NCBI RefSeq assembly: GCF_963921235.1
Contig: NC_086097.1
Location: 4,216,001 to 4,280,000, forward strand
DNA: 64,000 nt
Origin: Mobula hypostoma
Lineage: Eukaryota
Direction: 5' to 3'
The position numbers and the translations under genes are program-made. The notes beneath the pieces were generated by a model. The model searched no databases, was not told the DNA's origin, and was given only the letters and a program-made list of their open reading frames with translations. Numbering within the stretch: the first letter of the stretch is position 1; every line of letters starts with the position of its first letter. Below, piece by piece: positions 2,662 to 63,981 of the stretch.

Positions 2662-3467
2662 GTAAATATAACTGTCTCCTCCTCTAACCAGCAGAAATGG
2701 TTTCCCTCTGTACACTGTCTCACCTGTATGGTTCTATGATACTCCAATGCTCCGAAAAATTTTGAAAATTTCAAGTGACTGGATAACTTTTCAAATGTCA
2801 GTAAATGAAATTTGATTCATGGGGATTCACATATCATTGTGGTAAATCTGTGCTATTCCTTCTACATAGCCTATAAATGATTTCCAGACTCATCCACACT
2901 GGTCCATATTTGGCCTGAGCAAGATTTTGACATCCTGGTGTGTTTACAGACTCCTATTGTTCAAGAAAATTTAATTTGCTGCTTAGATTTTTCTTTGAAG
3001 AGGTATTTGGTGTATCAATATCAATACTTCTACAAATTATTGTAAAAACTCAACTAGTGTCATTAGACTTATATGAATGTCAACACAAAATGATAGGGTT
3101 TAGTCCAAATTATCCCACACTCTCCACTCTCAATATGCATTCCGTATATATACCATTCTTTGAAAACCAACTCTCATACTTAGAGAATGTTATGGACAAA
3201 TACTATCATCCCCTATTTTAGTTACAAGCCTGGTTCCTTCAACTCTTTTTGCCTCCACAATTGCTATTTTTTTAAACTATAGAAAGTCTTTTCGGCATAA
3301 TTTGTTTCCTTTTCTGAGAGAAGTTTCTAGTAAACTGCAACACAGTCTAATGAAAAGACAGTGGATCTAATCTGGGCACAGTAGAGCCTGTTTTGAGATT
3401 CCAATAGCATTGTCTATCATGAAATTGTAAGATATTGTGTTCAATCATAACCTTCTTACCCATATAG

Positions 3468-3637
3468 GGAATTTAACTGATGAACAGCATCTTTGGTTTT
3501 TGGATTTCTACAAGAAATTCAGTTCATTAGGCCTACAACATGAAAATGGCCAAAGTGAACACTTGACTCAGTTCTATGCAGCAGAAATGGATGCCAAATA
3601 TGCGTCTGTGAGACAGAATTGTGCCTACAATTTGCCA
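3468..3637 (+). CDS. PPP4R4: PPP4R4 coding exon B (170 nt, phase 1 to 0)
   Basis: catatag|GG AAT TTA ... TTG CCA|gtaagt. Encodes (G)NLTDEQHLWFLDFYKKFSSLGLQHENGQ...SVRQNCAYNLP. Confidence 0.95.
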
Positions 3638-12125: not shown

Positions 12126-12496
12126 TGAAGTTGAAAATGTTTTCACAACCTACTTGAGGTTATTGGAAGATGATACAATTGTACGGTCCATAGAGCCACT
12201 ATGCACACTTCCAGTAATCCAGATTCAATGCTGGCTTCTAATGCTGTCTGTACTGAATTTGCATGTTCTCAACTGACCGTTGGGGTTTCCTCCCACATTT
12301 GAACACCTTTATGTGTCCATTTTATTTTATTCAGAAATACAGTGTGGAACATGCCCTTCTGCTCCGACAAGCCACATTTGCAGCAACCCACCTATTTAAC
12401 ACTAGCCGAATAACAGGCCAATATACAATGATAAATTAACTAACTAACTGGTAGACTAGGTTATTTGGCCACTGTAAATTGCTTGTAATTTACAAG

Positions 12497-13421
12497 CACC
12501 AGCCTCCGGATCCAGCACATTATCCTCTGCAACTTCCGCCACCTTCAACAGGACCCCACCACTAAGCACATCTTTCCCTCTCCACCCCTGTCTGCTTTCC
12601 GCAGGGATCGGTCCCTCCGCGACTTCCTGGTCCACACGTCCCTCGCCACGGATCTCCCACCCAGCACTTATCCCTGTAAGTGCAAGTGCTACACCTGTCC
12701 CTACACCTCCTCTCTTGCCACCATTCAGGGCGCCAAACAGTCCTTCCAGGTGAGGCAACACTTCACTTGTGAGTCTGTTGGGGTCATCTATTGCATCTGG
12801 TGCTCCTGGTGCGGCCTCCTCTACATCGGTGAAACCCGACGCAGATTGGGGGACCGCTTCGTCAAGCACCTCCGCTCCATCTGCCACAACAGACAGGATC
12901 TCCCAGTAGCCACCCACTTCAACTCTGCTTCCCTTTCCCATTCAGATATGTCCATACATGGCCTCCTCTACTGCCATGATGAGGCTAAACTCAGGTTGGA
13001 GGAGCAACACCTCATATACTGTCTAGGTAGTCTCCAGCCCCTTGGTATGAACATAGAATTCTCCAAGTTCCGGTAATTCCCTCCCCCTCCCTTCCTCTAT
13101 CCCTATGTCATTCTCCCCCCTCCCCCAGCTGCCTATCACCTCCCTCATGGTTCCGCCTCCTTCTACTACCCGTTGTGTTTTCCCCTATTCCTTCTTCACC
13201 TTTCCTGCCTATCACCTCCCTGCTTCCCTCCCCCACCCCTTTATCTTTCCCCTTACCGGTTTTTCACCTGGAACCTACCAGCCTTCTCCTTCCCACCCTC
13301 CCCCACCTTCTTTATAGGGCCTCTGCCCCTTCCCTCTACAGTCCTGACGAAGGGTTCTGGCCTGAAACATCGACCAATCTTTTCCACGGATGCTGCCCGA
13401 CCTGCTGAGTTCCTCCAGCGT
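12497..13421 (+). mobile_element. Penelope-like element 3' part (GIY-YIG endonuclease plus 3' UTR/pLTR)
   Basis: ORF 12750-13076 VIYCIWCSWCGLLYIGETRRRLGDRFVKH...PVATHFN...GMN is a PLE GIY-YIG domain with CxxC; pyrimidine-rich UTR with a hammerhead motif. Confidence 0.9.
13339..13376 (+). ncRNA. Minimal type-I hammerhead ribozyme motif, partly decayed
   Basis: cagtc CTGACGA agggttctggcct GAAA catc gacca. Confidence 0.65.
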
Positions 13422-14030
13422 GAGGTAAATTCTAGGTTGGCATTTATTTCAAGGGGAATAGAATATAAAAGCAAGAAGATAATGCTGAGCACTAGTCAGG
13501 CCGCTTTTGGAGTATTGTCAACAGTTTTGGGCCCCATATCTCAGAAAGGATGTGTTGGCATTGGAAAGAGTCCAGAGAAGGTTCAGAAGGATGATAATGG
13601 GAATGAAGGGGTTAAGATATGAGGAGCGTTTGGCAGGTTGGACCTGTACTCACTGGAATTTAGAAGAATGTGTGACGATCCCGCCAAAAGCTACCGAATG
13701 TTGAAAGAACTAGATAGAGTGGATGTGGAGAGGATGATTCCCACTGTGGTGGTATCCAGAACTAGAGGGCACAGCCTCAAAATTGATTTATTTAGCCAGA
13801 AAGTAGTCAATCTGTGGAATTCTCTGCCACAGACTGAGGTGGAGGCCAAGTCCGTTGGTATGTTTAAGATGGAAGTTGATTGTTTCCTGATCAGTCAGGA
13901 CATCAAAGGATATGGCAAGAAAGCAGGTGTACAGGGTTAAGTGGGATCTGGAATCAGCCATGATGGAATAGCGGAGCAGATTTGAAGGGCTGAATGGCCT
14001 AATTCTGCTGCTATGTGTTATGGTCTTATT
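13422..14030 (+). mobile_element. CR1 3' end
   Basis: EYCQQFWAPYLRKDVLALERVQRRF; tail gtgttatggtctta. Confidence 0.85.
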
Positions 14031-15329: not shown

Positions 15330-18300
15330 CCTCCACCAACAAGGAATAGGAAGGGGTCAATAACTCTACTGGGTGTTTTTTTATAAGCCACCCAATAGTA
15401 ACAGGGACATCAAGGAGCAGATAGGGCGACAGATTCTGGAAAGGAGTAATAATAACAGGGTTGTTGTGGTGGGTGATTTTAATTTCCCAAATATTGATTG
15501 GCATCTCTCTAGAGTGATGAGTTTAGATGGGGTGGAGTTTGTTAGGTGTGTTCAGGAAGGTTTCTTGACACAATATGGAGATAAGCCTACAAGAGGAGAG
15601 GCTGTTCTTAATCTGGTATTGGGAAATGAACTTGGTCAAGTGTCGGGTCTCTCAGTGGGAGAGCATTTTGGAGATGATGATCACAATTCTATCTCCTTTA
15701 CTAGCATTGGAGAGGGATAGGAACAGACAAGTTAGGAAAATGTTGATATTAAGGGAGAGGAGGTGATGGAGTTATTAAAATACATTAGGACGGCTAAGTT
15801 CCCGGGGCCTGACGGAATATTCGCCAGGCTGCTCCACGAGGCAAGGGAAGAGATTGCTGAGCCTCTGGCTAGGATCTTTATGTCCTCGTTGTCTACGGGA
15901 ATGGTACCGGAGGATTGGAGGGAGGCGAATGTTGTCCCCTTGTTCAAAAAAGGTAGCTGGGTTAGTCTGGGTAATTATAGACCAGTGAGCCTTATGTCTG
16001 TGGTGGGAAAGCTGTTGGAAAAGATTCTTAGAGATAGGATCTCTGGGCATTTAGAGAATCATGGTCTGATCAGGGTCAGTCAGCATGGCTTTGTGAAGGG
16101 CAGATCATGTCTAACAAGCCTGATAGAGTTCCTTGAGGAGGTGACCAGGCATATAGATGGGGGTAGTGCAGTGGATGTGATCTATATGGATTTTAGTAAG
16201 GCATTTGACAAGGTTCCACACGGTAGACTTATTCAGAAAGTCAGAAGGCATGGGATCCAGGGAAGTTTGGCCAGGTGGATTCAGAATTGGCTTGCTTTCA
16301 GAAGGCAGGGGTAGTGTGGAGGGAGTACGTTCGGATTGGAGGGATTTGACCAGTGGTGTCCCACAAGGATCCGTTCTGGGACCTCTACTTTTCGTGATTT
16401 TTATTAACGACCTGGATGTGGGGGTAGAAGGGTGGGTTGGCAAGTTTGCAGACGACACAAAGGTTGGTGGTGTTGTGGATAGTGTCAACGATTGTCGAAG
16501 ATTGCAGAGAGACATTGGTAGGTTGCAGAAGTGGGCTGAGAAGTGGCAGATGGAGTTCAACCCGGAGGAGTGTGAGGTGGTACACTTTGGAAGGACAAAC
16601 TCCAAGGCAGAGTACAAAGTAAATGGTAGGATACTTGGTAGTGTGGAGGAGCAGAGGGATATGGGGCTATATGTCCACAGATCCCTGAAAGTTGCCTCAC
16701 AGGTAGATAGGGTAGTTAAGAAAGCTTATGGGGTGTTAGCTTTCATAAGTCGAGGGATAGAATTTAAGAGTCGCGAGGTAATGATGCAGCTCTATAAAAC
16801 TCTGGTTAGGCCACACTTGGAGTACTGTGTCCAGTTCTGGTCGCCTCACGATAAGAAAGATGTGGAAGCATTGGAAAGGGTACAGAGGAGATTTACCAGG
16901 ATGCTGCCTGGTTTAGAGAGTATGGATTATGATCAGAGATTAAGGGAGCTAGGGCTTTACTCTTTGGAAGGAACAAGGATGAGAGGAGACATGATAGAGG
17001 TATACAAGATGTTAAGAGGAATAGATAGAGTGGACAGCCAGCACCTCTTCCCCAGGGCACCACTGCTCAATACAAGGGGACATGGCTTTAAGGTAAGGGG
17101 TGGGAAGTTCAAAGGGGATATTAGAGGGAGATTTTTTACTCAGAGAGTGGTTGGTGCATGGAATACATTGTCTGAGTCAGTGATGGAGGCAGATACACTA
17201 GTGAAATTTAAGACACTACTAGACCGGTATATGGAGGAATTTAAGGTGGGGGGTTATATGGGAGGCAGGGTTTAAGGGTCGGCACAACATTGTCGGCTGA
17301 AGGGCCTGTACTGTGCTGTACTATTCTATGTTCTATGTTCTATGTTTATTTGGAGTAAAGGGAAATATGAAGCTATCGAGCAGGAAAATGGAAGCATAAA
17401 TTGGAAACAGATGTTCTCAGGGAAATATACGGAAGAACTGTGGCAAATGTTCAGGGGATATTTGCGTGGAGTTCTGTGTAGATACGTACAAATGAGAAAG
17501 GGAAGGATGGTAGGGTACAGGAACCGTGGCATATAAAGGCTGTTGTAAATCTAGTCAAGAATAAAAGAAGAGCTTATGAAAGGTTCAAAAAACTAGGTAA
17601 TGTTAGGAACCTAGGAGATTATAAGGCTATCAGGAAGGAGCCTAAGAATGAAATTAGGAGAGCCAGAAAGGACCATGGGAAGGCCTTGGCGGACAGGATT
17701 AAGGAAAATCCCAAGGCATTCTACAAGTATGTGAAAAGCAAAGGGATAAGATGTGAGAGAATAGGACCAATCAAGAATGACAGTGGAAAAGTGTGTATGG
17801 AACCTGAGGAGATGACAAAGGTACTTAATGAATACTTTGCTTTAGTATTCACAATGGAAAAGGATCTTGCTGATTCTAGGGATGACTTGCAGTGGACTGA
17901 ATAGCTTGAGCATGTAGATATTAAGAAAGAGTATGTGCTGGAGCTTTTGGAAAGCATCAGGTTGGATAAGTCACCAGGACCAGATGGGATGTACCCCAGG
18001 CTACTGTGGGAAGTGAGGGAGGAGATTGCTGAGCCTTTTGCAATGATCTTTGCATCATCAAATAGGATGGGAGAGGTTCCATAGGATTGGAGGGTTGCAG
18101 ATGTTGTTCCCTTATTCAAGAAAGTGAGTAGAGATAGCCCAGGGAATTACAGACTATTGAGTCTTACTTCAGTGGTTGGTAAGTTGATGGAGAAGATCCT
18201 GAGAGACAGGATTTATGAACATTTGGAGAGGCATAATATGATAAGAAATAGTCAGCATGGCTTTTTCAAAGGCAGGTTGTGCCTTCCAAGCCTGACTGAA

Positions 18301-39468: not shown

Positions 39469-40005
39469 ATGCAAGAGATTCTGCTGATGCTGGAAATCTA
39501 GAGCATCACATACAAAATGCTGGAGAAACTCAGCAGGTTGGGCAGTATCTCTGGAAATGAATAAACAGTTGATATTGTGGGTCAACGTCCTTCATCAGGA
39601 CTGGAAAGGAAGGGGCTGGGTGGGAAGAAGCCAGAGTAAGGTGGTGGGGGGGGGGATGGGAAGGAGTACGATGGTAGGTGAGGCCAGGTATGTGGTTGAA
39701 GTAAGATGCTGGGAAGTGATAATCACAAAAGGCAAATAGCTGGAGAGGAAGGAATCTGATAGGAGAGGAGAGTGGGCCACAGGAGAAAGGGAAAGAGGAG
39801 AGGCACCAGGGGGAGATGATGGGCAGGTGGGGAGAAGAGGTAAGGGGCCAGAGTGGGGAGCAGAAAAAGAGGGAAGGGGAAAGGATAAAAAATATTACCA
39901 GAATGAGAATCAGTGTTCATGCCATCAGATTGGAGGCTGCCTAGAGATCATTTCCATAAATGGTGCCTGACCTTCTGAGTTCCTCCAGCATTTTGTGTGT
40001 CTTGC
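39469..40005 (-). mobile_element. Penelope-like inverted two-arm insertion with an 8-bp TSD
   Basis: tattgtaa at 39461-39468 and 40006-40013; long - arm plus a short + arm. Confidence 0.8.
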
Positions 40006-40219
40006 TATTGTAATCATATAAGTTATAGTGATAATTTTGGTTGTGTTTTAAAACTAATTGTTTAGACAAAGTATAGGCAGTAAATCAGTGACATTTTTAG
40101 TGCCATTTTAATATGTTTGGCCTTGTAAAGTATTTGTATGCCTAATTCTATGCATAAGAATTTGGAGCAATGATCACAGTGTCCAAGATGTTACCTTTAA
40201 TTGGAAATTTTGTTGTCAG

Positions 40220-44900: not shown

Positions 44901-46102
44901 AGGAAACATCTATTTGAGGGAAATGCATAGTCACTCATCCATCAAATCTGATGAGTGTGAGAGAAGATGACAGAAATGTCACTACATTAAATATTTGATT
45001 TGTCCTTTAAACATGGACAATAAGACTTTTACAAAAAAATCGTTTTGATATATAAAACAAATTGTAAATGGGGCATAGTATTTCACCATACTAGAGATAT
45101 CCTAAGATGATGAAATATCAGCATTAATTTGTATTTAAATACAGAATAAATGGAAACATTCTCTCACTTTTATTCAGACAAAACTGAAGGTAGTTTTTCA
45201 AAATTTGTTCTTCACTTGTAGCTTTTATGCTTCTTAATGAGCTAACAATCTCTTGCTGATAGAGGCTTGATTGTTCTACTGAGTTGTTTCCCACCTGCTA
45301 ATAATCATTAGGTGGAATAATAATTAATTCTATCATCTATGAATTTTTGCCATGAGGATTGCTTTTGTAAGAGTCGCCAAAAATGTGTGTAACAAATTAT
45401 GATAGTTACATTTATTCTAAGTGCCTCAGTTTAGAAAACATTTTATTTGTTTTAATTGATATTAAAATAAACACTGTAAAGTTTTAAGAAAATTTATTGC
45501 TGACAAAATTGGGGAAAATGTTTTGGTGGACCTACACGCAATAGGATGAATACATTTTAAAACACATGGGTGTCCCTAAGATTTTCCTGGAAGGTGGTAG
45601 ATTTATTTCATGTAGAAGGCAGAGTAATTATTAATTTTATTTTCTGCCATAATCCAACTATGCCTAACTACAACAGATAAAAAGAATACACAGGTTATTG
45701 GAATTGTACACCTCTAAGTGTAAATCAGCCATGTCTTTTAAAGCTGTTAATGACTTAATCTGCTGTGCATTTGTAGAATTTTCCATTTTTATTTCAGATT
45801 ACTAGCCTTTGAGATTTTTTAAAAATGTATCTATCCGGTTGTAGCTTTTGATGGTGGGAATAGGTATGCAGTAGATAGAAACCAGGAGGAGCTAAACCTT
45901 CAAACCTGTTGTCCAATGGGCAGGTGGTCCTGGCTGGACCACAAGCAGAAACATGCCCAGTGATCTGTGTGTGTTTTACTAAGTGAATTTCAATCTGACT
46001 TTGTGCAAATAGGGAATATGATGAAACCCTAGAATATACTACAATGTGCATAATAAAGCATTGTGCTATTCATTCACAATTTGTTTTATTTTTCTTGTCC
46101 AG

Positions 46103-54088: not shown

Positions 54089-54163
54089 TTTCCAAAAAGG
54101 TTACAAGAGGAAGACTTACTTGATCACAAAAAGGAGAAGGAAGAACATTTACTGTTGGAAATG
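54089..54163 (+). CDS. PPP4R4: PPP4R4 coding exon K (75 nt)
   Basis: tctccaag|TTT CCA ... GAA ATG|gtaata. Encodes FPKRLQEEDLLDHKKEKEEHLLLEM. Confidence 0.92.
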
Positions 54164-54236
54164 GTAATATTGGTGTTTATCCTGAAACATTTACGGTATA
54201 CATTTTGAAAGAGAGATTACATTGAGTTTTATGCTC

Positions 54237-54635
54237 ATCATCATGATTACGATGTCTCGTGTCATGTTGTATGACGTGGGTGATCATGGTCTTTCCATGA
54301 CCATGATTGTTCTTGGCAAATTTTTCTACAGAATTAGTTTGCTATTGCCTCTCTGGGCAGTGTCTTTACAAGATGGGTAACCCCAGCCATTATCAATACT
54401 CTTTAGAGATTGTCAGCCTGGTATCAGTGGTCACATAACCAGGACTTGTGATATGCACCAGCTGCTCATACAACCATCTACCACCTGCTCCCATGGCTTC
54501 ACGTTACCCTGATCGGTGGGGATGTGGGGGCTCTAAGCGGGTGCTACACCTTGCCTCAGGGTGACCTGCAGGCTAGTGGAGGGAAAGAATGCCTTACATC
54601 TCCTATGGTAGAGACTACCTCCAAACTGCACCGCA
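54237..54635 (-). mobile_element. RTE-like SINE (inverted sister of 27775-28120)
   Basis: Long reverse-complement match, e.g. catatcacaagtcctggttatg...gagtattgataatgg...catcttgtaaagacactg; (TGA)n tail. Confidence 0.65.
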
Positions 54636-56710
54636 TTTTTTAATGCTAACTACAGATGTCTCTGCTTATTCTCATTATATAAAAGTTAATGTGACCTGCT
54701 ATTAATATGTAACTGGCTTACAATTACATTAAAGTGATTCTATTTCTATTATAAGACCGTAAGGCAAAAGACCTAGGAGAAGAATTAGGCCATTTGGCCC
54801 ATCAAGTTTGCTCCGCCATTCAATCATGACTGATCCTTTATCTTCTCCTCAGACGCACTCTCTGGCCTTCTCCCCATAATCTTTGATGCTGTGGCCAATC
54901 AAGAACCCATCAATCTCCACCTTAACTACACTTAATGACCTGGCCTCCATGGCTGCCACAAATTAATCATCCTCTGGCTAAAGAAATTTCTCTATATCTC
55001 TATTTTAAATGGATGCCCCCCTATTCTGAGGCTGCGCCCTCTTGTCTTAGACACTGCCATCATAGAAAAAATTCTTTCCACATCTACTCTGTCTAGGCCT
55101 TTCAACATTCGAAAAGTCTCAAGAGATTTCCCCCTCATCCTTCTAAATTCCAGCAAGTACAGGCCCAACTTCTCTGGAAATATCCTGCTTGCGTATACCC
55201 TATCTATACCCATCATCTTTTTGTATAGCTTTATCAAATCTTCCCTTAATCTTCTACACTTTAGGGCAGGTGTTTCTAAATGTTTTTATGTTACAGACCA
55301 CTACCATTAGTCGAGGGGCCTGTGGACCCAAGGTTGGGAACCCCTGCTCTGAGAAACAAAGTCCTAACCTATTCAACCTTCCTCTGTAACTCAGGTCCCC
55401 GAGTCCTGGCAGCATCCTGACTTCCCACTCGTCCTTCTCAGTTCCCGTGAGTACAGGACCTGAGCCATCAAATGTTCTTCATATGATAACCCTTTCTTTC
55501 CTGGAATCATTCTTGTGAACCTCCTCTGGCCCCTCTCCAATGCCAGCGTATCTTTTCTTAGATTTGGAGCCCAAACCTGTTCACAATACTCAAGGTGAGG
55601 CTCACCAGTGTCTTATAAAGCCTCAGCATCACATTCTTGCTCTTATATTCTAGAGCTGTTGAAATGAATGCTAACATTGCATTCACCTAACTCACCACTG
55701 AATGAACCTGCAAGTTAACCTTTAGGGTGTTCTGCATAAGGTCTGCCAAGTCACTTTGCATCTTAGATTTTTGGATTTTCTTCCCATTTAGAAAATAGTC
55801 TGCACATTTATTTCTTCTACTAAAGTGCAGAACCATGCAGTTTCTAATATTGTATTTCATTTGCCACTCTCTTGCCCATTCTCCTAATCTGACTAAATCC
55901 TTCTTCAGCCTTTCTGTTTCCTCAAAACTACCTGCCCCTCCACCAATCTTCGTCTCATCTGCAAACCTGGCAACAAAGCCATCTATTTCATCATCTAAGT
56001 CATAGATCTGTAGCATAAAAAGAAATTGTCCCAAGCATGCAGAACACCACTAGTCAGTAGCAGTCACCAGAAAAGGATCCTTTTATTCCCACCCACTACC
56101 AATCAGCCAATGCTCTTACACGTTCCTGTAATACCATGGGCTCTTAACTTGATAATGAGCCTCGTGTGTGGCACCTTGACAAAGACCTTCTGAAAATCTA
56201 AATATGTAATATGCACTACATCCCCTCTATCTATCCACCTTGTAATCAACTCAAAGAATTCCAACAGGTTCATCAGGCGAGATTTTCCCTGAAGGAAACC
56301 ATTCTGACTTTGTCCTATCTTGTCCTGTGTCACTAAGTACTCCATAACCTCATCCTTTACAATTGACGCCAACATCTTCCCAACCACTGAGGTCAGGATA
56401 ACTGGTCTATAATTTCCTTTCTGCTTCCACCCTTCTTTCTTAAAGAGTGGTGTGACATTTGCAATTTTCCAGTCCTCCAGAACCATGCCAGAGTCTAATG
56501 ATTCTTGAAAGATCATTGCTAATGCCTCCATAATCTCTACCGATACCTCTTTCAGAACCCTAATGAGCAGTTCATCTGGTCTGGTTGACTTATGCACCTT
56601 TAGGTCTTTCAGATTTTTTGAGAACGTTCTCCCTTGTAATAGTCTCCCTGGTTCACATCTTTATTGTTATGCTGTAGGCATCTCATTTAGCACCTCTGTA
56701 AGAACTATTT

Positions 56711-57902
56711 AGAAACATAGAAACATAGAAAATAGGTGCAGGAGTAGGCCATTCGGCCCTTCGAGCCTGCACCGCCATTTATTATGGTCATGGCTGATCA
56801 TCCAACTCAGAACCCCGCCCCAGCCTTCCCTCCATACCCCCTGACCCCTGTAGCCACAAGGGCCATACCTAACTCCCTCTTAAACATAGCCAATGAACTG
56901 GCCTCAACAGTTTCCTGTGGCAGAGAATTCCACAGATTCACCACTCTCTGTGTGAAGAAGTTTTTCCTAATCTCGGTCCTAAATGGCTTCCCCTCTATCC
57001 TCAAACTGTGACCCCTCGTTCTGGACTTCCCCAACATTGGGAACAATCTTCCTGCATCTAGCCTGTCCAATCCCTTTAGGATCTTATACGTTTCAATCAG
57101 ATCTCCCCTCAATCTTCTAAATTCCAACGAGTACAAGCCCAGTTCATCCAGTCTTTCTTCATATGAAAGTCCTGCCATCCCAGGAATCAATCTGGTGAAC
57201 GTTCTTTGTACTCCCTCTATGGCAAAGATGTCTTTCCTCAGATTAGGGGACCAAAACTGCACACAATACTCCAGGTGTGGTCTCACCAAGGCCTTGTACA
57301 ACTGCAGTAGTACCTTCCTGCTCCTGTACTCGAATCCTCTCACTATAAATGCCAGCATACCATTCACCTTTTTCACCGCCTGCTGTACCTGCATGCCCAC
57401 TTTCAATGACTGGTGCATAATGACACCCAGGTCTCGTTGCACCTCCCCTTTTCCTAATCGGCCACCATTCAGATAATAATCTGTTTTCCTATTTTTGCCA
57501 CCAAAGTGGATAACTTCACATTTATCCACATTAAATTGCATCTGCCATGAGTTTGCCCACTCACCCAACCTATCCAAGTCACTCTGCATCCTCTTAGCAT
57601 CCTCCTCACTGCTAACACTGCCACCCAGCTTCGTGTCATCCGCAAACTTGGAGATGCTGCATTTAATTCCCTCATCCAAGTCATTAATATATATTGTAAA
57701 CAACTGGGGTCCCAGCACTGAGCCTTGCGGTACCCCACTAGTCACCGCCTGCCATTCTGAAAAGGTCCCGTTTATTCCCGCTCTTTGCTTCCTGTCTGCT
57801 AACCAATTCTCCACCCACACCAATACCTTACCCCCAATACCGTGTGCTTTAAGTTTGCACACTAATCTCCTGTGTGGGACCTTGTCAAAAGCCTTTTGAA
57901 AG
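56711..57902 (-). mobile_element. Young 5'-truncated CR1 with an uninterrupted RT-to-stop frame
   Basis: ORF 56807-57862 (351 aa) has no stops; (TTTCTATG)n tail; ctattt at 56705-56710 and 57903-57908. Confidence 0.93.
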
Positions 57903-59300
57903 CTATTTGTTCTGCTTTCAGCCTCTTTGGGTTATTGTTGAAGATAAAGGATGATGTGGAATGTGTGCCACCCAATTAGCGGGAGGTTTTTCTTGGTGAG
58001 GGACAATAAGGTTGGTCTTGGGCTCCTGTTCGAAACGAGATGAAGAGAGAAGACACTAGGGAGAACTGGTCGTAGCATACAATCTGGTGGGAGACCAGTT
58101 TGTTCGAGGTGGATTGCGAGCGACGTTTGGAAGGTGGTGTGTGTTTTCACGTTGACCGAGGGCCCAGTGCATGAGTAACAGAAAAGTTCAAGATGAGATC
58201 CAACTTGAGCTGGCATTTATATCTCACACGTTTGACAGGGCTGGAGATTGTGTTCCCTAGACTTATGCAGCTGAGGAAACCAGAATGTTTCATAGTAAAT
58301 ACACTCACTTATCTTTCCTCACACCTTTCAATACCTAGCACACTGCTAGTGCTTTCCAAAGTGAAGACTGATGCTAAATACTCATTTAATTCAGGAGCCA
58401 TCTCCTTGTACCCCGTTATTATTTCTTTGGCCTCATTTGCTAGCGGTCCTGTATCTACTTTCATCTCTCTTTTATTTTTTATATATTTGAAAAAGCTTTT
58501 TATATCCACCTTGACATTGTTTGCTAGCTTGCTTTCATATTTCATCTTTTCCCTCCTAATGATACTTTTAGTTGCTTTCTGTAGGTTTTTAAAAGCTTCT
58601 CAACCCTCTATCTTCCTGCTAATTTTTGCTTTGTTGTATGCCCTCTCTTTTGCTTTAGCATTAGCTTTGACTTCCCTTGTTAGCCACAGTTGTATAATTT
58701 TGCCATTTGAGTATTTCGTGGTTTTAGGAATGCACCTATCCTGCACCTTACTCATTTTTCCCAGAAACACATGCTAATGCCACTCTGCTGCCGCCCTTGC
58801 TAGCAGCTACTTCCAATTTACTTTGGCCAAACCCTCTATCATTACACTATAATTTCCTTTACTCCACTGAAATACTGCTGAGTCAGACTTTACTTTCTCC
58901 CTATCAAATTTCAAGTTGAACTCAATCCTATTGTTATCACTGCCTCCCAAGGATGAAACTCCCTTATCGTCTCTGGTTCATTACATAACACCCAATCCAA
59001 TATAGCTGATCCTCTAGTAGGCTCAACAGCAAGCTGCTCTACAAACCATCTTTCTTGTAGGCATTCAACACATTCACTGTCTTGAGATCCATTAGCAACC
59101 TGATTTTCCCAATCTACCCGCATGTTAAAATTTCTCATGACTATCATAACATTGCCTCTTTGACACACCTTTTCTATTTCCTGTTATATCCTGTAGTCCA
59201 CAACCCTGCTGCTCCTTGTATATAACTGCCACCATGGTCCTTTTACCCTTACAACACGCTGGAGGAACTCAGCAGGTCGGGCAGCATCCGTGGAAATGAT

Positions 59301-59338
59301 GAGTTGATGTTTCAAGCCGGAACCCTTCGTCAGGACTG
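59301..59338 (-). ncRNA. Minimal hammerhead motif, decayed (left arm)
   Basis: The - strand reads cagtc CTGACGA agggttccggctt GAAA catc aactc. Confidence 0.55.
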
Positions 59339-59803
59339 TAGAGGGAAGGGGCAGAGGCCCTATAAAGAAGGTGGGGGGAGGGTGGGAAGGAGAAGGCTGG
59401 TAGGTTCCAGGTGAAAAACCAGTAAGGGGAAAGATAAAAGGGTGGGGGAGGGAAGCAGGGAGATGATAGGCAGGAAAGGTGAAGAAGGAATAGGGAAAAA
59501 CACAATGGGTAGTAGAAGGAGGCGGAACCATGAGGGAGGTGATAGGCAGCTGGGGGAGGGGCAGAGTGAAATAGGGATAGAGGAAGGGAGGGGGAGGGAA
59601 TTACCGGAAGTTGGAGAATTCGATGTTCATACCAAGGGGCTGTTGACTACCTGGACGGTATATGAGGTGTTGCTCTTCCAACCTGAGTTTAGCCTATCAC
59701 CTCCCTGCTTCCCCTGCCCCACCCCTTTATCTTTCCCCTTACCGGTTTTTCACCTGGAACCCACCAACCTTCTCCTTCCCACCCTCCCCCCACCTTCCCT
59801 CTA

Positions 59804-59841
59804 CAGTCCTGATGAAGGGTTCCGGCCCGAAACGTCGACTG
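59804..59841 (+). ncRNA. Minimal type-I hammerhead ribozyme with an intact core
   Basis: cagtc CTGATGA a GGG ttccgg CCC GAAA c GTC gactg: perfect 5-bp helix I, helix II present, palindromic ACGT in place of helix III. Confidence 0.85.
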
Positions 59842-61234
59842 ATCGTTTCCACGGATGCTGCCCGACCTGCTGAGTTCCTCCAGCGTGTTGTGAGTGTTGC
59901 TTTGATCCCAGCATCTGCAGAGTATTTTGTGTTCCTTTTACCCTTGCAGTTTGTTAACATGGCACAGGTAGCTATCCAGAAATTATTATCCTGAGGTCCT
60001 GCTTCTTAGCTTTCTGCTTAGCTGTCTAAATTTTCTTTTCAGGACCTCTCTGCTTTTCCCTCTTATGTCATTGGTACCATTATGTGCTAAGACATCTGGT
60101 TGCTCCCCCTTCCCACCAAAATGCTGTGGATATGACCAGCGATGTCCTTTACTGTGCACCTAGGAGGCAAAATACCATCTGGGTGTCCCATTCATATCCA
60201 TAGAATCTCCTGTCTGTTCCTCTGACTATTGAGTCGCCTATCACTACCGTTTTCCTCTTCCCCCTCTTCCTTTCCGGACCACAAACCTGTGCTCAGTGCC
60301 AGTAACCTGGTCTCCATGACATTCCCCTGGGCAGTCATCCACCACACAGTATCCATAACGGTATATTTATTATTGAGGGAATGGCCACAGGGTGCTCAGT
60401 GCTAATTGCCTATTCACCATCCTACTTCTTCTTCTGACACACACCCAGCTACCCGCCTCCTGCAACTTAGGGGTGACTACTTCCCTGTAACTCTGATCAA
60501 TGATCTCTTTACTCTTCCGTGCATGCCAAAGGTCATCCAGTTGCTGCTCCAGGTCCCTAATACGGTCTTCAAGGAGCTGCAACTGGATGCATTTCATACA
60601 GATGTAGTTCCTTGGGACACACAGGGTCTCCCAGGACTCCAATATCCGATGTGAAGAACACACAATGGCCATTTAAACTATAAGTACCCCTAACCCAGTA
60701 AGAAATAAGGGAAACTTATCAGAAACTTATCCGGACAATTTACCCAGAGCTAATGCTTCTTTCGAGCTGATGACTCCTTTGAGCCAAAGCCTGCCACTCT
60801 CACCATTGGCCCACTCCAACAATGGCCGCTCTGCTTGTCTCCTCTGTACTTTTATTTATTCCTCTCTATGCTGCCCCCACCACTGACTGGGATGCTGGAA
60901 TGACACCGAACAGCTGCGAGCTCTCCTTTTAAACGAGTACCACTTCCTTCTAGAGGGTTGGGAAGCTTTTAAGAGTACTACCTCTTCTCTGTGCTGCTCT
61001 CGCTACTGATTGGGACATTGAAATGATACCGAATACTCGCAAAGCTCTCCTTTTAAACAAGCACTGATATATATGGAATATTATTTTTTTTATTTATGAG
61101 ACTTTTGAGTTGTGTTTTTGAATATTCCAAGGCTTTACAGCCCAATATTTGGGTTAAGTAGAGATTGGTGAACTGGATTGTTTGATTACTTTTGAGGTGA
61201 GGGAATAGTTGGGTGAAACATTTTTGCAAAGTTA

Positions 61235-62145
61235 TAAAATTATACAGCACAGAAACAGGTTATTTGGCCTAACTCATTCTTTCTGATCAAGCTGGTCCCA
61301 TTTGCCTGCATTTGGCCCTTATCTCTCTCAACCTTTTACATCCATGTGCCTGTTAAAATGTCTTTTAAACATCATATTCAAATCCACCTCTACAGCTTCT
61401 TCTTGGCAGCTGGTTCTATATATCCACAACCCTTTGCACTTGTCCAAGTTAAATTTCCATCTGCTAATCCTAGGTCCACTTCCCATTTCATCTAGATCCT
61501 GTTGTAATCATAAATAACCACCTCTACTGTCCAATACATGACTAATTTTGGTGTCCTCGCAATGTTCCTAACCAAGTTAATAACTTTGTCATCCAAACAA
61601 CAATGGGCCTGAGGCATTCCCCTGGTCACAGGCCTCCAATTTGAATGACAACTCTCCACAATCAACCTTCTTCTGTTCCACCAATCCAGTGGATCCACCA
61701 ATCCCTGGATCCCAGGCAACCTAACCTTCCAGGCCAACCTAACATAGAAGCTCTTGTTAAAGGCTTGCTGAAGTTTGAATCTTTTGTCAGACTTCTTAAT
61801 GGTTTTTTTCATAAATTCTGGTTCAATTTTGTTTCAGAATGTTGTTGTTGTTTGCTTCAATTAGTTGCTTGCTTTTATTTTTTCTTGTGCAACAAATGTT
61901 GCTGTTTTATTTTTATTTTTTGCTTTAATTTGGTTCTTTCGGGTTTCTTGCTTTGTGGCTACCTATGAGCAAGCAAATCTCAAGGTTGTATAATTTATAC
62001 ATTCGTTGATAATAAATGAATCTTGAATCTTCTATGCAACACACACAAAATTTAATTTCCTGTAAATGCCTACAAGTAAATAAATCGCAAGGTAGTATTT
62101 GGTGATATATATGTACTTTGATAATAAATTTACTTTGAACTTTGA
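61235..62145. mobile_element. CR1 fragment (-) followed by Rex/L2-like tails (+)
   Basis: ORF 61492-61812 (-) WRPVTRGMPQ; tails ataataaatgaatcttgaatct and aataaatttactttgaactttga. Confidence 0.6.
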
Positions 62146-62279
62146 ATAGACAACCTATGCTGCCATGCTCTCATCAGTCATTTTAGTTAGCTTTTTATTG
62201 ATCCCATGACAAAATTATTTTTCCCCTGTGCTTCATATTCTTATTTGCAAAGGTTTTCTGCATCCTGTCCTTGCATTAA

Positions 62280-62862
62280 CAAGGCTCTCTGTTGTTCGGA
62301 GTTAACCATGGGTCTTGTGTCGTAGCTGTCTTTGTGATAGGTAAGTCAGGGCAGTGGGAGATATGAAGAGCAAATTGTTGCCTTGCTGCAGGCTCCCCCC
62401 TCTCCTCACAGCTGATGGATCCAAAAGAAGAGCTGAAACCAGTACAGTTTGGCACCAGCTGTGTTGCAGGAGTTGCCAGTGTCAGTGTTGACCTCAATGT
62501 TGGACTGCCTTTGGGACACCAGCTCCAGTTTTTTCCGACGTGGTTTACTCCCGAAGCCTTTCCATGAGTGGGCATAGCGGTAAGGTAGCAGAGGTTTGAG
62601 ATTAGAGTTTTTCTTCGCCTAGATGAGCTACCAACCATGTCTGATGAGCCCCATCTGCTCAAAGCTGCTGGTTTTAAGGTGCCAGTAACCTGCTTTTGCC
62701 CCTCCTCCTGTCTGTAGAAACAGTTCAGCCGGGCCGAGTAGCTAAGCCACACAGGACTCGGTTGTCAGAGGCTATTTGAGGCGCATGCCATTGGGAGCAT
62801 TTAATAGCCAGTGGGAGCTTATCCCCAGCAACTGCCCTGGCTATGACAATCTTAAGGGACCT
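62280..62862 (-). mobile_element. RTE-like non-autonomous element, about 50 nt upstream of exon L
   Basis: The - strand has ggttggtagctcatctaggcgaagaaaaactct (RTE 5'-like motif); a sister fragment lies at 1645-1835. Confidence 0.6.
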
Positions 62863-62911
62863 TTGCATTATCATTACTTAATAAAAAGCAGTCCAATATT
62901 TTGCTCAACAG

Positions 62912-62963
62912 GAAGACATGGAAAAGCGAATAGAAAACAAGGCAGTGAATGAAAAGAAATTAG
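62912..62963 (+). CDS. PPP4R4: PPP4R4 coding exon L (52 nt, phase 0 to 1)
   Basis: caacag|GAA GAC ATG ... TTA G|gtgagt. Encodes EDMEKRIENKAVNEKKL. Its position matches human EQLEKEKQ...SDKMF, but the sequence is more diverged. Confidence 0.82.
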
Positions 62964-63423
62964 GTGAGTTTGCTTTTGTTCTCATTTGATAACTGTTAAG
63001 CACATAATATTTTCCTGCAATTTAGTTATTTTTGAAAGCAAATTTTATCACTATTTGAATACAAATAAATGACAATTTTCCAAAAGATGTTGTTGATAGT
63101 TGTATACGAACTTCACCTCTTCGTGACACCCACCCTATAAAATTAATTGGGGTGACTGCGGAAGTAAACTAAAGCAGGCATCAATCTTTTTTGAGAGTAA
63201 ATGGAATTCAAAAATTTGCAAATACAGGAAATCTGAAATAAAAGCAGAAAATACTAGAAACGTTCAACATATCAGACAGCATCCCAGCCCCTCCCACTCT
63301 GCTCTATCTCTCCTTGTCCATACTGCTTTCCACGAACACCTCCCCCCATGATATTGCAAAAAAAAAACAACTCTGCTATATCCAAACTGGTAGCATGTGT
63401 TAAACACAAGAGATTCTGCAGAT

Positions 63424-63981
63424 ACGAGGAATTCTGCAGATGCTGGAAATTCAAGCAACACACATCAAAGTTGCTGGTGAATGCAGCAGACCAGGCAGCA
63501 TCTCTAGGAAGAGGTACAGTCGACGTTTCAGGCCGAGACCCTTCGTTGGGATTAACTGAAGGAAGAGCTAGTAAGAGATTTGAAAGTGGGAGAGGGAGGG
63601 GGAGATCCAAAATGATAGGAGAAGACAGGAGGGGGAGGGATGGAGCCAAGAGCTGGACAGGTGATTGGCAAAAGGGATATGAGAGGATCATGGAAGAGGA
63701 GGTCTGGGGAGAAAGGTGGGGGAGGGGGGGAACCCAGAGGATGGGCAAGGAGTATAGTCAGAGGGACAGAGGGAGAAAAAGGAGAGAGAGAGAGAGAGAA
63801 AGAATGTGTGTATATAAATAAATAACGGATGGGGTACGAGGGGGAGGTGGGGCATTAGAGGAAGTTTGAGAAGTCAATGTTCATGCCATCAGGTTGGAGG
63901 CTACCCAGACGGAATACAAGGTGTTGTTCCTCCAACCTGAGTGTGGCTTCATCTTTACAGTAAAGGAGGCCATGGATAGAC
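63424..63981 (-). mobile_element. Penelope-like 3' fragment inserted into the end of another PLE
   Basis: Near-identical to 21820-22272; ctgcagat flanks it at 63416-63423 and 63982-63989. Confidence 0.85.

What the first reader, a model, noticed from the sequence alone, without database searches (positions are those of the whole stretch)
59804..59841. Intact minimal hammerhead ribozyme on the sense strand of a PPP4R4 intron, one of about ten copies
Seen: helix I cagtc/gactg, core CUGAUGA, an extra A, helix II GGG/CCC, GAAA, and a GUC cleavage triplet (predicted cut after 59836). Helix III is reduced to the palindrome ACGU. Decayed sisters lie at 13339 (+), 21917 (-), 38348 (-), 39566 (-), 49260 (-), 49794 (+), 50005 (+), 53604 (+), 59301 (-) and 63517 (-), many damaged at CpG sites. 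Established: PLE terminal repeats carry minimal type-I hammerheads thought to cleave as dimers, and an extra nucleotide after A9 is tolerated in some natural hammerheads. Inference: sense-strand copies could pair in cis or trans and cleave the host pre-mRNA. Activity here is untested.
Basis: partly seen in the sequence, partly recalled or inferred. Interest (0 to 1): 0.75.

Follow-up and report, generated by a model that had tools for sequence, protein, structure and literature searches.

The report
Penelope-element hammerhead relic in intron
A complete-looking small self-cutting RNA motif really is there, but it is the tail end of a dead Penelope-like jumping gene, one of about nineteen thousand such motifs in this ray genome, and it is most likely inert in the host gene.

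Summary
59804-59841 (+) carries every conserved hammerhead position, a 5-bp helix I, a GGG/CCC helix II, an extra A after A9 and the palindrome ACGU in place of helix III. All 10 listed sister copies exist. It lies on the sense strand of a PPP4R4 intron (54164-62905).

It is a textbook minimal hammerhead (min-HHR) of a Penelope-like element (PLE), the class described by Cervera and de la Pena in 2014. The motif lies about 270 nt after the stop of an RT plus GIY-YIG ORF. This locus is one insertion (59254-59929) of two 5'-truncated copies lying head to head. One end carries a 41-nt tail, and a 19-bp target-site duplication flanks the whole. The genome holds 18,918 exact copies of this core. The C7 form (14,990) outnumbers the U7 form seen here (3,928).

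Cleavage of the host pre-mRNA is unlikely. The intron has no same-strand partner. The inverted sister copy locks the motif into a hairpin with arms of about 200 nt. Published PLE hammerheads cleave poorly, or only with the element's protein. No Rfam hammerhead model matches. Usable RNA data were not available.

This scan found the same kind before on other DNA (shark genomes). It is a known kind and of low interest.

The parts
59804..59841 (+). Minimal type-I hammerhead motif. Helix I is 59804-08 paired with 59837-41. The core CUGAUGA is 59809-15, the extra A is 59816, and helix II with its loop is 59817-28. GAAA is 59829-32. The vestigial helix III, ACGU, is 59832-35. C17 is 59836.
   Evidence: features compared with PMC4209133
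59692..59929 (+). Right copy: a 5'-truncated PLE consisting of 3' UTR only. It includes a 41-nt terminal extension ('tail', about 59889-59929) that the left copy lacks.
   Evidence: the tail concept is from PMC8557442
59254..59699 (-). Left copy: a 5'-truncated PLE in inverted orientation. It keeps the last ~32 codons of the GIY-YIG endonuclease ORF (59604-59699), the stop codon at 59601-59603 and the 3' UTR. Its hammerhead at 59302-59338 has decayed.
59235..59253 (.). Left copy of the putative 19-bp target-site duplication.
   Evidence: family D3, 89% identical to 59930-59948
59930..59948 (.). Right copy of the putative target-site duplication.
54089..54163 (+). PPP4R4 coding exon upstream of the intron that holds the motif.
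   Evidence: tblastn, 100% over 25 aa to P0002/P0003
62906..62962 (+). Next PPP4R4 coding exon downstream. The match is weak: 84-89% over 19 aa, E 2e-4 to 8e-4.
12489..13422 (+). A longer 5'-truncated copy of the same subfamily. It has a 195-aa open frame with a GIY-YIG remnant and a 3' UTR. Its hammerhead at 13339-13374 keeps the core boxes, but helix III is ACAU and helix I is broken.

Best explanation
The motif is the minimal hammerhead (min-HHR) that canonical, endonuclease-bearing Penelope-like retroelements carry in their terminal (pLTR / 3' UTR) region.

Shown here: this locus is one old insertion (59254-59929). It consists of two 5'-truncated copies lying head to head with their 3' ends outward. 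A 19-bp target-site duplication flanks it, and one end carries a 41-nt tail. Both hammerheads were identical at insertion. The left one then lost several CpG sites. The right one kept all conserved positions, which looks like chance.

Inferred from the literature: in a living element the motif acts on the element's own transcript. It needs either a second copy to build helix III (the dimer model) or the element's RT-EN protein. Its role in transposition is still uncertain.

Inferred for this locus: in the PPP4R4 intron the motif is an inert relic. As a monomer it has no helix III. It has no sense-strand partner nearby. In the pre-mRNA it should be base-paired with the inverted sister copy transcribed just before it.
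For: Motif anatomy.

Match to the published class (PMC4209133):
- a G10.1-C11.1 pair;
- palindromic 15.2/16.2;
- a helix I of 4-5 bp;
- pairs of motifs 100-700 bp apart on opposite strands.
All of these are seen here.

The element is a PLE:
- A 727-aa open frame in L047 has RVT_1 at 35.1 bits (cut-off 29.6) and GIY-YIG at 17 bits, below its 22.6 cut-off.
- GIY-YIG scores 26.9 bits (cut-off 22.6) in an L007 copy.
- In L047 the hammerhead lies 272 nt after the stop, and an inverted hammerhead lies upstream.
- The left window copy ends the same ORF (...NIEFSNFR, then stop), as seen.

Insertion architecture:
- Inverted arms are 91-94% complementary.
- The arms share 183 of 196 aligned positions. 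Of the 13 mismatches, 11 are transitions and 6 lie in CpG context. The right arm has a 41-nt overhang.
- A 19-nt direct repeat sits at both borders.
- Among the first 100 genomic places of a 3'-flank pattern, 10 of 10 pairs closer than 2 kb are (-,+), that is, tails outward.
- PMC8557442 describes the inverted 5'-truncated copy and a 30-40-bp tail at one end as PLE hallmarks.

Abundance:
- 18,918 exact cores in the genome, 0 for the reversed controls.
- 215,777 first-look candidates for the endonuclease protein, of which 150 were scored, all at E <= 1.9e-111.

Conservation between subfamilies: B-type copies (n = 20) are 50-56% identical to this copy in the flanks directly beside the motif. The 10 helix-I positions, which my search pattern did not force, differ at one position only.

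Inertness here:
- The 751-nt fold gives an MFE of -461.5 kcal/mol, z = -33, with the motif paired to the inverted arm.
- The ACGU duplex is worth -1.7 kcal/mol. The monomer MFE (-12.7) is a misfold that beats the helix I + II fold (-10.5).
- PMC4209133: a single min-HHR showed no detectable cleavage, and dimers cleaved weakly.
- PMC11167929: the lizard Poseidon hammerhead showed no cleavage without the element's protein, core mutants did not affect insertion in vitro, and no RNA-seq ends were found at the cut site.
Against: - No Rfam 15 hammerhead family matches. This holds at gathering score, at E <= 10 over the whole window, and at E <= 10 on 59770-59870 alone. Assignment therefore rests on the motif descriptor and its context, not on a curated model.
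- I found no compensatory (two-sided) base-pair changes in this genome's families. There is only a one-sided C-to-U change in helix I, so the structure has no covariation support from these data.
- The copies were selected by an exact core pattern. That forces 22 of the 38 motif positions.
- The ~43 nt downstream of the motif are also conserved between subfamilies (75%), so conservation is not unique to the ribozyme.
- Cleavage, or its absence, was not measured. The thermodynamic models ignore proteins and co-transcriptional kinetics.
- GIY-YIG scores fall below Pfam's cut-off in 3 of the 4 ORFs where it was detected.
Confidence: 0.86

Rival explanations
1. The sense-strand motif pairs with another copy, in cis or in trans, to build helix III and cleaves the PPP4R4 pre-mRNA after 59836.
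For: All catalytic positions are intact and the motif is on the sense strand. Five of the 11 window copies are on the sense strand. The dimer mechanism is the accepted model for hammerheads with a vestigial helix III (PMC4209133, PMC6765202).
Against: - There is no second sense copy in this intron.
- The only other sense copy with its core boxes (13344) is 46 kb upstream in another intron. It has ACAU instead of ACGU and a broken helix I.
- The other three sense copies have changes at C3, G8 or G12.
- A 4-bp helix III is worth -1.7 kcal/mol.
- The inverted sister, transcribed first, pairs with the whole arm.
- Published in vitro activity is low even for tandem dimers.
Confidence: 0.03
2. Protein-assisted cleavage. 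When intact PLE copies are expressed, their RT-EN protein binds the 3' region of this relic within the pre-mRNA and helps the motif cleave. This is what was reported for a lizard Poseidon element in vitro.
For: PMC11167929 (passages) reports cleavage only when the element's protein was added, and independently of the endonuclease active site. The genome holds family copies with long open frames: up to 727 aa without a stop among the 150 scored. The conserved region downstream of the motif is present in this copy.
Against: The same paper found no RNA-seq reads beginning or ending at the cut site in vivo. The hairpin with the inverted arm competes with any such fold. Expression of the family could not be assessed: no RNA holder was listed.
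Confidence: 0.03
3. The relevant feature for the host is not the ribozyme but the inverted pair. It forms a near-perfect double-stranded hairpin (arms of about 200 nt) in the intron. Such a hairpin could attract RNA editing or small-RNA processing, or could influence splicing.
For:: MFE -461.5 kcal/mol against -276 +/- 5.6 for shuffles; arms 91-94% complementary. Such tail-out pairs are common in the genome: 10 of 10 close pairs, involving 20 of the 100 sampled places.
Against: No RNA data are available. This is generic to thousands of such pairs, and nothing here shows any effect on PPP4R4.
Confidence: 0.08
4. The motif is a chance resemblance with no ribozyme ancestry.
For: No Rfam model matches. 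A loose descriptor does give chance hits in the window, such as 44948 and several.
Against: There are 18,918 exact genomic copies against 0 for the reversed controls. The position in the element is fixed relative to the RT/GIY-YIG ORF. All four unforced hallmarks of the published class are present.
Confidence: 0.005

Closest known systems
Minimal hammerheads (min-HHR) in the terminal repeats of metazoan Penelope-like elements (Cervera and de la Pena 2014, PMC4209133; parts 1-2 of 4 read)
   Same: Both are type I, with the same core boxes. Both have an unpaired nucleotide between A9 and G10.1, a G10.1-C11.1 pair, a helix I of 4-5 bp and a palindromic 15.2/16.2 with no real helix III. Both number thousands of copies per genome, mostly as single motifs in truncated elements, with frequent opposite-strand pairs 100-700 bp apart.
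   Different: Helix II here is short: 3 G-C pairs plus a possible U-G, with a 4-nt loop. The paper describes 7-8 bp for Schistosoma. The family majority has C at position 7. The host is a batoid ray; the parts of the paper I read name bony fishes, coelacanth, Xenopus and reptiles. The exact-core count (18,918) is higher than the ~4,000 and ~9,000 quoted for coelacanth and Xenopus, but the descriptors differ.
Hammerhead of the Poseidon element of Anolis carolinensis (PMC11167929; passages read)
   Same: [quoted passage not shown] Variable 3' ends and a 'tail' fit internal initiation of reverse transcription.
   Different: In the lizard element the ORF starts inside helix II. Here the motif lies about 260-270 nt after the stop codon and about 50-90 nt before the 3' end. 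Protein dependence was not tested here.
Non-LTR retrozymes of animals (PMC7229834, listing only; preprint 10.64898/2026.07.22.740005, abstract and passages)
   Same: Both carry type-I hammerheads related to PLE terminal repeats. The preprint reports one cartilaginous fish with retrozymes.
   Different: Retrozymes are short head-to-tail tandem repeats that give circular RNAs. This locus is a dispersed, inverted pair of truncated autonomous-element ends. No same-strand pair closer than 2 kb was seen among the 100 sampled family places.
Canonical type-I hammerheads of newt satellite 2 and Schistosoma SINE-like repeats (as summarised in PMC4209133 and PMC6765202)
   Same: Both have an unstable helix III with a palindromic loop, and both are thought to be active as dimers.
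   Different: The canonical ones have a 6-bp helix I and a 4-bp helix II with loop-loop tertiary contacts, plus a 1-2-bp helix III. Here helix I is open with no loop 1, and helix III is reduced to ACGU.
[quoted passage not shown]
   Same: Both are hammerheads on the sense strand of an intron of a protein-coding gene.
   Different: The amniote examples are single-copy, have a stable helix III and are conserved at orthologous sites. This one is a repeat copy with no helix III, and its orthology was not tested.

Membership tests
min-HHR of metazoan Penelope-like elements | Conserved core: C3 U4 G5 A6 N7 G8 A9, G12 A13 A14, A15.1/U16.1, H17 | tested here: met
   CUGAUGA at 59809-15, GAAA at 59829-32, U at 59835, C17 at 59836. 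Searches match the descriptor.
min-HHR of metazoan Penelope-like elements | One unpaired nucleotide between position 9 and 10.1 | tested here: met
   A at 59816. The A after the first core box is kept in all 10 sisters aligned.
min-HHR of metazoan Penelope-like elements | G10.1-C11.1 base pair closing helix II | tested here: met
   G 59817 pairs with C 59828.
min-HHR of metazoan Penelope-like elements | Palindromic 15.2/16.2, so that two copies can build helix III | tested here: met
   ACGU at 59832-35. The duplex energy is only -1.7 kcal/mol.
min-HHR of metazoan Penelope-like elements | Located in the terminal repeat or 3' region of an element encoding RT plus GIY-YIG endonuclease | tested here: met
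   RVT_1 scores 35.1 bits (cut-off 29.6) in the same 727-aa frame as GIY-YIG, with the motif 272 nt after the stop. GIY-YIG scores 26.9 bits (cut-off 22.6) in another copy.
min-HHR of metazoan Penelope-like elements | Covariation or compensatory changes in helices among families of one genome | tested here: not met
   (33 copies): only a one-sided C-to-U change in helix I between subfamilies, and no two-sided change. The sample was small and selected by core pattern.
min-HHR of metazoan Penelope-like elements | Self-cleavage as a dimer, abolished by core mutation | not testable with these tools
   No usable RNA runs. This needs a bench assay.
Rfam hammerhead families (release 15) | Score at or above a family's gathering threshold | tested here: not met
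   No hammerhead hit at gathering, at E <= 10 on the whole window, or at E <= 10 on 59770-59870.
Canonical EN+ Penelope-like element insertion | An inverted 5'-truncated copy adjacent at the 5' end, and a 30-40-bp tail at one end (PMC8557442) | tested here: met
   head-to-head copies at 59254-59699 (-) and 59692-59929 (+), a 41-nt extension on the right copy only, and a 19-bp flanking direct repeat.
Non-LTR retrozyme | Head-to-tail tandem repeats of a short hammerhead-bearing unit | tested here: not met
   The two copies here are inverted. None of the 10 close pairs among 100 sampled family places are same-strand. No dedicated tandem-repeat scan was run.
Domesticated intronic hammerhead (amniote type) | Stable helix III and conservation at the orthologous intron | tested here: not met
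   Helix III is absent. Orthologous introns of other species are not available with these tools, so that half was not tested.

The most novel reading that the evidence does not exclude
In cells where intact Penelope-like elements are expressed, their RT-EN protein may bind the conserved 3' module of the many thousands of relic copies lying in sense orientation in introns. It might then assist their minimal hammerheads to cleave. Bursts of element expression would cut host pre-mRNAs such as PPP4R4 at C17 (59836). That would couple transposon activity to host transcript loss.
Probability: 0.02. Interest if true: 0.7.

Novelty: new member of a known kind. Interest (0 to 1): 0.12.

Why it matters
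This finding matters little by itself. It is a clean, well-delimited example of a ribozyme class described in 2014, and it shows the class is very abundant in a batoid ray (18,918 exact cores).

It is useful as a caution. An 'intact' ribozyme in an intron can be a neutral survivor among decaying transposon copies. Only 3 of the 11 copies in this window keep the core boxes. Its canonical-looking CUGAUGA probably arose from the family's CUGACGA by CpG decay.

The large set of copies could serve a family-wide test of whether PLE hammerheads cleave in vivo. That question is still open in the literature.

Tried and rejected
- Rfam: three cmscan runs gave no hammerhead hit. This was expected for a motif without helix III, so it does not decide identity.
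- my first descriptor demanded at least 2 nt between GAAA and GUC and therefore missed the motif. One search corrected this.
- Public runs: no RNA holder listed. All 24 rows are contigs with small shares of the sampled words.
- Laying four runs on 58001-63500: only short, repeat-derived contigs. Contigs cannot show RNA ends, so this says nothing on cleavage or expression.
- Covariation: none found.
- Post-insertion conservation as a sign of selection: rejected as uninformative for transposon copies. The core (22 specified nt with 2-3 CpGs) survives in 18,918 places. A 22-nt flank pattern with at most one CpG survives in 37,537. That is the same order of magnitude, and the flank pattern does not cover all subfamilies.
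- RNAcofold of two copies: it gives an extended duplex (-30.5 kcal/mol). Nested-structure folding cannot represent the true hammerhead dimer, so I used only the helix III duplex energy.
- Lunse, Weinberg and Breaker (RNA Biol) is not held. I saw it only as a reference in PMC6765202.
- Clade assignment within PLEs (Poseidon, Neptune or Nematis) was not attempted.
- Notes by place in this genome: none.
- A paper search for penelope + ribozyme + cartilaginous found 0 papers.

Full report
**Observation**

The sequence at 59804-59841 (+) reads CAGTC CTGATGA A GGGTTCCGGCCC GAAA CGTC GACTG. Every invariant hammerhead position is present:
- C3-A9 at 59809-59815;
- G12-A14 and A15.1 at 59829-59832;
- U16.1 at 59835;
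- C17 at 59836.

Helix I has 5 base pairs. Helix II has three G-C pairs and a possible U-G pair around a 4-nt loop. One A is unpaired between A9 and G10.1. Helix III is reduced to the palindrome ACGU.

The 38-mer is unique in the window at up to 3 mismatches. A loose descriptor gives two hits against 0.38 expected. The second hit, at 44948, has no complementary flanks and is chance.

All 10 of 10 listed sisters exist within 4 nt of the stated coordinates and on the stated strands. Of the 11 copies, three keep all core boxes (59809 +, 13344 +, 59306 -). The other eight have a change at C3, U4/G5, G8, G12 or U16.1.

**What the repeat is**

BLAST of the region against the window and an alignment of 12 stretches show a repeat family. 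The window's own genome has 3.48 Gb in 200 contigs. It gives 1,275 first-look candidates for the 207-nt arm; 40 were scored, at 82-100% identity.

In other loci, 59245-59699 recurs as one contiguous piece. That piece ends an open frame (...LGMNIEFSNFR, then stop) with GIY-YIG endonuclease motifs. Pfam scores GIY-YIG at 26.9 bits (cut-off 22.6) in an L007 copy and at 18.6 bits in window 12489-13073. Four further short ORFs gave nothing.

A genomic copy, L047, has a 727-aa frame without stops:
- RVT_1 scores 35.1 bits (cut-off 29.6).
- GIY-YIG scores 17 bits, below its cut-off.
- The hammerhead core lies 272 nt after the stop.
- An inverted hammerhead lies upstream of the ORF.

A second copy, L048 (669 aa), has both domains below cut-off. 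RT followed by a C-terminal GIY-YIG domain, with a hammerhead in the terminal region, defines a canonical Penelope-like element (PMC4209133, PMC8557442).

**Architecture at this locus**

The left copy (59254-59699, minus strand) keeps the last ~32 codons, the stop (59601-59603) and the 3' UTR. Its hammerhead at 59302-59338 has decayed.

The right copy (59692-59929, plus strand) is 3' UTR only and carries the motif of the finding.

The two lie head to head with their 3' ends outward:
- The arms are 91-94% complementary.
- They are identical at 183 of 196 aligned positions. Of the 13 mismatches, 11 are transitions and 6 are in CpG context.
- There is one 22-nt indel.
- The right copy runs 41 nt further at its 3' end.
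- A 19-nt direct repeat (89% identical) sits exactly at both borders, at 59235-59253 and 59930-59948. I read it as a target-site duplication, and hence the pair as a single insertion event.

PMC8557442 (passages) describes just this for PLEs: an inverted 5'-truncated copy adjacent at the 5' end, and a 30-40-bp tail often present at only one end.

In a genomic sample, the first 100 places of a 3'-flank pattern hold 10 pairs closer than 2 kb. All 10 are (-,+), that is, tails outward.

**Abundance and ancestry of the motif**

The core pattern with U7 has 3,928 exact genomic hits and with C7 has 14,990. The reversed control patterns have none. The family's usual core is therefore CUGACGA.

The sister arm and the 13339 copy carry C7. 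The CUGAUGA of the finding is therefore best explained by C-to-T decay at a CpG. That change is harmless because position 7 is variable.

The fifth helix-I pair is also particular to this copy. Its closest subfamily mostly has GACTC or GACCG as the 3' arm.

The 'perfect' look of this copy is thus partly accidental. Seven of the 13 differences between the two arms fall within the ~45-nt CpG-rich motif region.

**Conservation between subfamilies**

Twenty B-type copies (helix II loop TCTCGG) are only 50-56% identical to this copy in the flanks directly beside the motif. They are 75% identical in the next 43 nt downstream and 89% in the motif.

The copies were chosen by an exact core pattern, so 22 of the 38 motif positions are forced. 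The 10 unforced helix-I positions differ at one position only, C to U, which keeps a G-U pair.

It gives no two-sided covariation.

**Comparison with what is known**

Cervera and de la Pena 2014 (PMC4209133; parts 1-2 of 4 read) define min-HHRs in PLE terminal repeats. They list as unforced hallmarks:
- the G10.1-C11.1 pair;
- palindromic 15.2/16.2;
- consensus families within each genome.

They also note helix I of 4-5 bp, thousands of mostly solitary motifs per genome, and pairs 100-700 bp apart on opposite strands. All of these apply here except covariation.

No Rfam 15 hammerhead model matches at any threshold tried. This fits the absence of helix III, but it means no curated model supports the call.

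**Host context and likely function**

The exon at 3467-3637 (+) is 100% identical to PPP4R4 of two rays. Of the 27 hits, 26 are named PPP4R4. Exons map on the plus strand from 2535 to 62962. The motif lies in the intron between 54163 and 62906. The last exon match is weak, but the C-terminal ~110 residues of the protein are not yet encoded by 54163.

The sense-strand claim therefore holds. Cleavage of the pre-mRNA is unlikely, for these reasons:
- The intron has no second sense copy.
- The only other sense copy with its core boxes is 46 kb upstream in another intron. It has ACAU and a broken helix I.
- The ACGU duplex is worth -1.7 kcal/mol. The isolated 38-mer prefers a misfold (-12.7) over helices I + II (-10.5).
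- A transcript of 59200-59950 folds into a hairpin in which the whole right arm pairs with the inverted left arm, which is transcribed first. The MFE is -461.5 kcal/mol against -276 for shuffles, z = -33.

The literature points the same way. A single min-HHR showed no detectable cleavage, and dimers cleaved weakly (PMC4209133). The lizard Poseidon hammerhead cleaved only with the element's protein, its core mutants did not affect insertion in vitro, and no RNA-seq ends were found at the cut site (PMC11167929; passages).

**What could not be done**

No RNA run was usable. The laid contigs were short repeat pieces that cannot show ends. Orthologous introns and a gene annotation were not available. 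The Lunse et al. paper on dimer cleavage is not held and was seen only as a citation in PMC6765202.

**Verdict**

The host-cleavage inference is improbable. The scan has reported the same kind on other (shark) genomes before. This is a new member of a known kind and of low interest.

Noticed in passing
window 59254-59471 and 59692-59888: The inverted PLE pair should form a near-perfect double-stranded hairpin (arms of about 200 nt) in the PPP4R4 pre-mRNA. The MFE is -461.5 kcal/mol for 751 nt, z = -33. Any host effect of this locus is more likely to come from that than from the ribozyme.
   Followed up: partly
genome G000 (pattern counts): The family's hammerhead core is mostly CUGACGA (14,990 exact hits) rather than CUGAUGA (3,928). 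The canonical-looking U7 of the finding is probably a CpG-decay product.
   Followed up: yes
G000:C1, first 100 places of the 3'-flank pattern: All 10 of the 10 pairs closer than 2 kb are in (-,+) orientation, that is, head to head with tails outward. This is the PLE insertion signature at genome scale.
   Followed up: partly
window 59854-59896 and homologous stretches: The ~43 nt downstream of the hammerhead (GATGCTGCC...CCAGC) are about 75% identical between subfamilies whose other flanks are about 50% identical. This may be the module that the RT recognises or where it initiates.
   Followed up: no
window 44948-44980 (+): This is a second match to the loose hammerhead descriptor. Its flanks cannot form helix I, and 10.1/11.1 would be G-A. 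It is a chance match.
   Followed up: yes
window 3467-3637 (+): This PPP4R4 exon is 100% identical at protein level to two myliobatiform rays, so the genome is a batoid. Exons of the gene span the window from 2535 to 62962.
   Followed up: yes
window 16181-17272 (+), 56810-57931 (-) and many others: The introns are dense with long open frames that look like fragments of LINE-type reverse transcriptases. They were not run against Pfam.
   Followed up: no
window 39855-40035 (+): This is a copy of the family's 3' tail only, without the hammerhead part. It was aligned.
   Followed up: no
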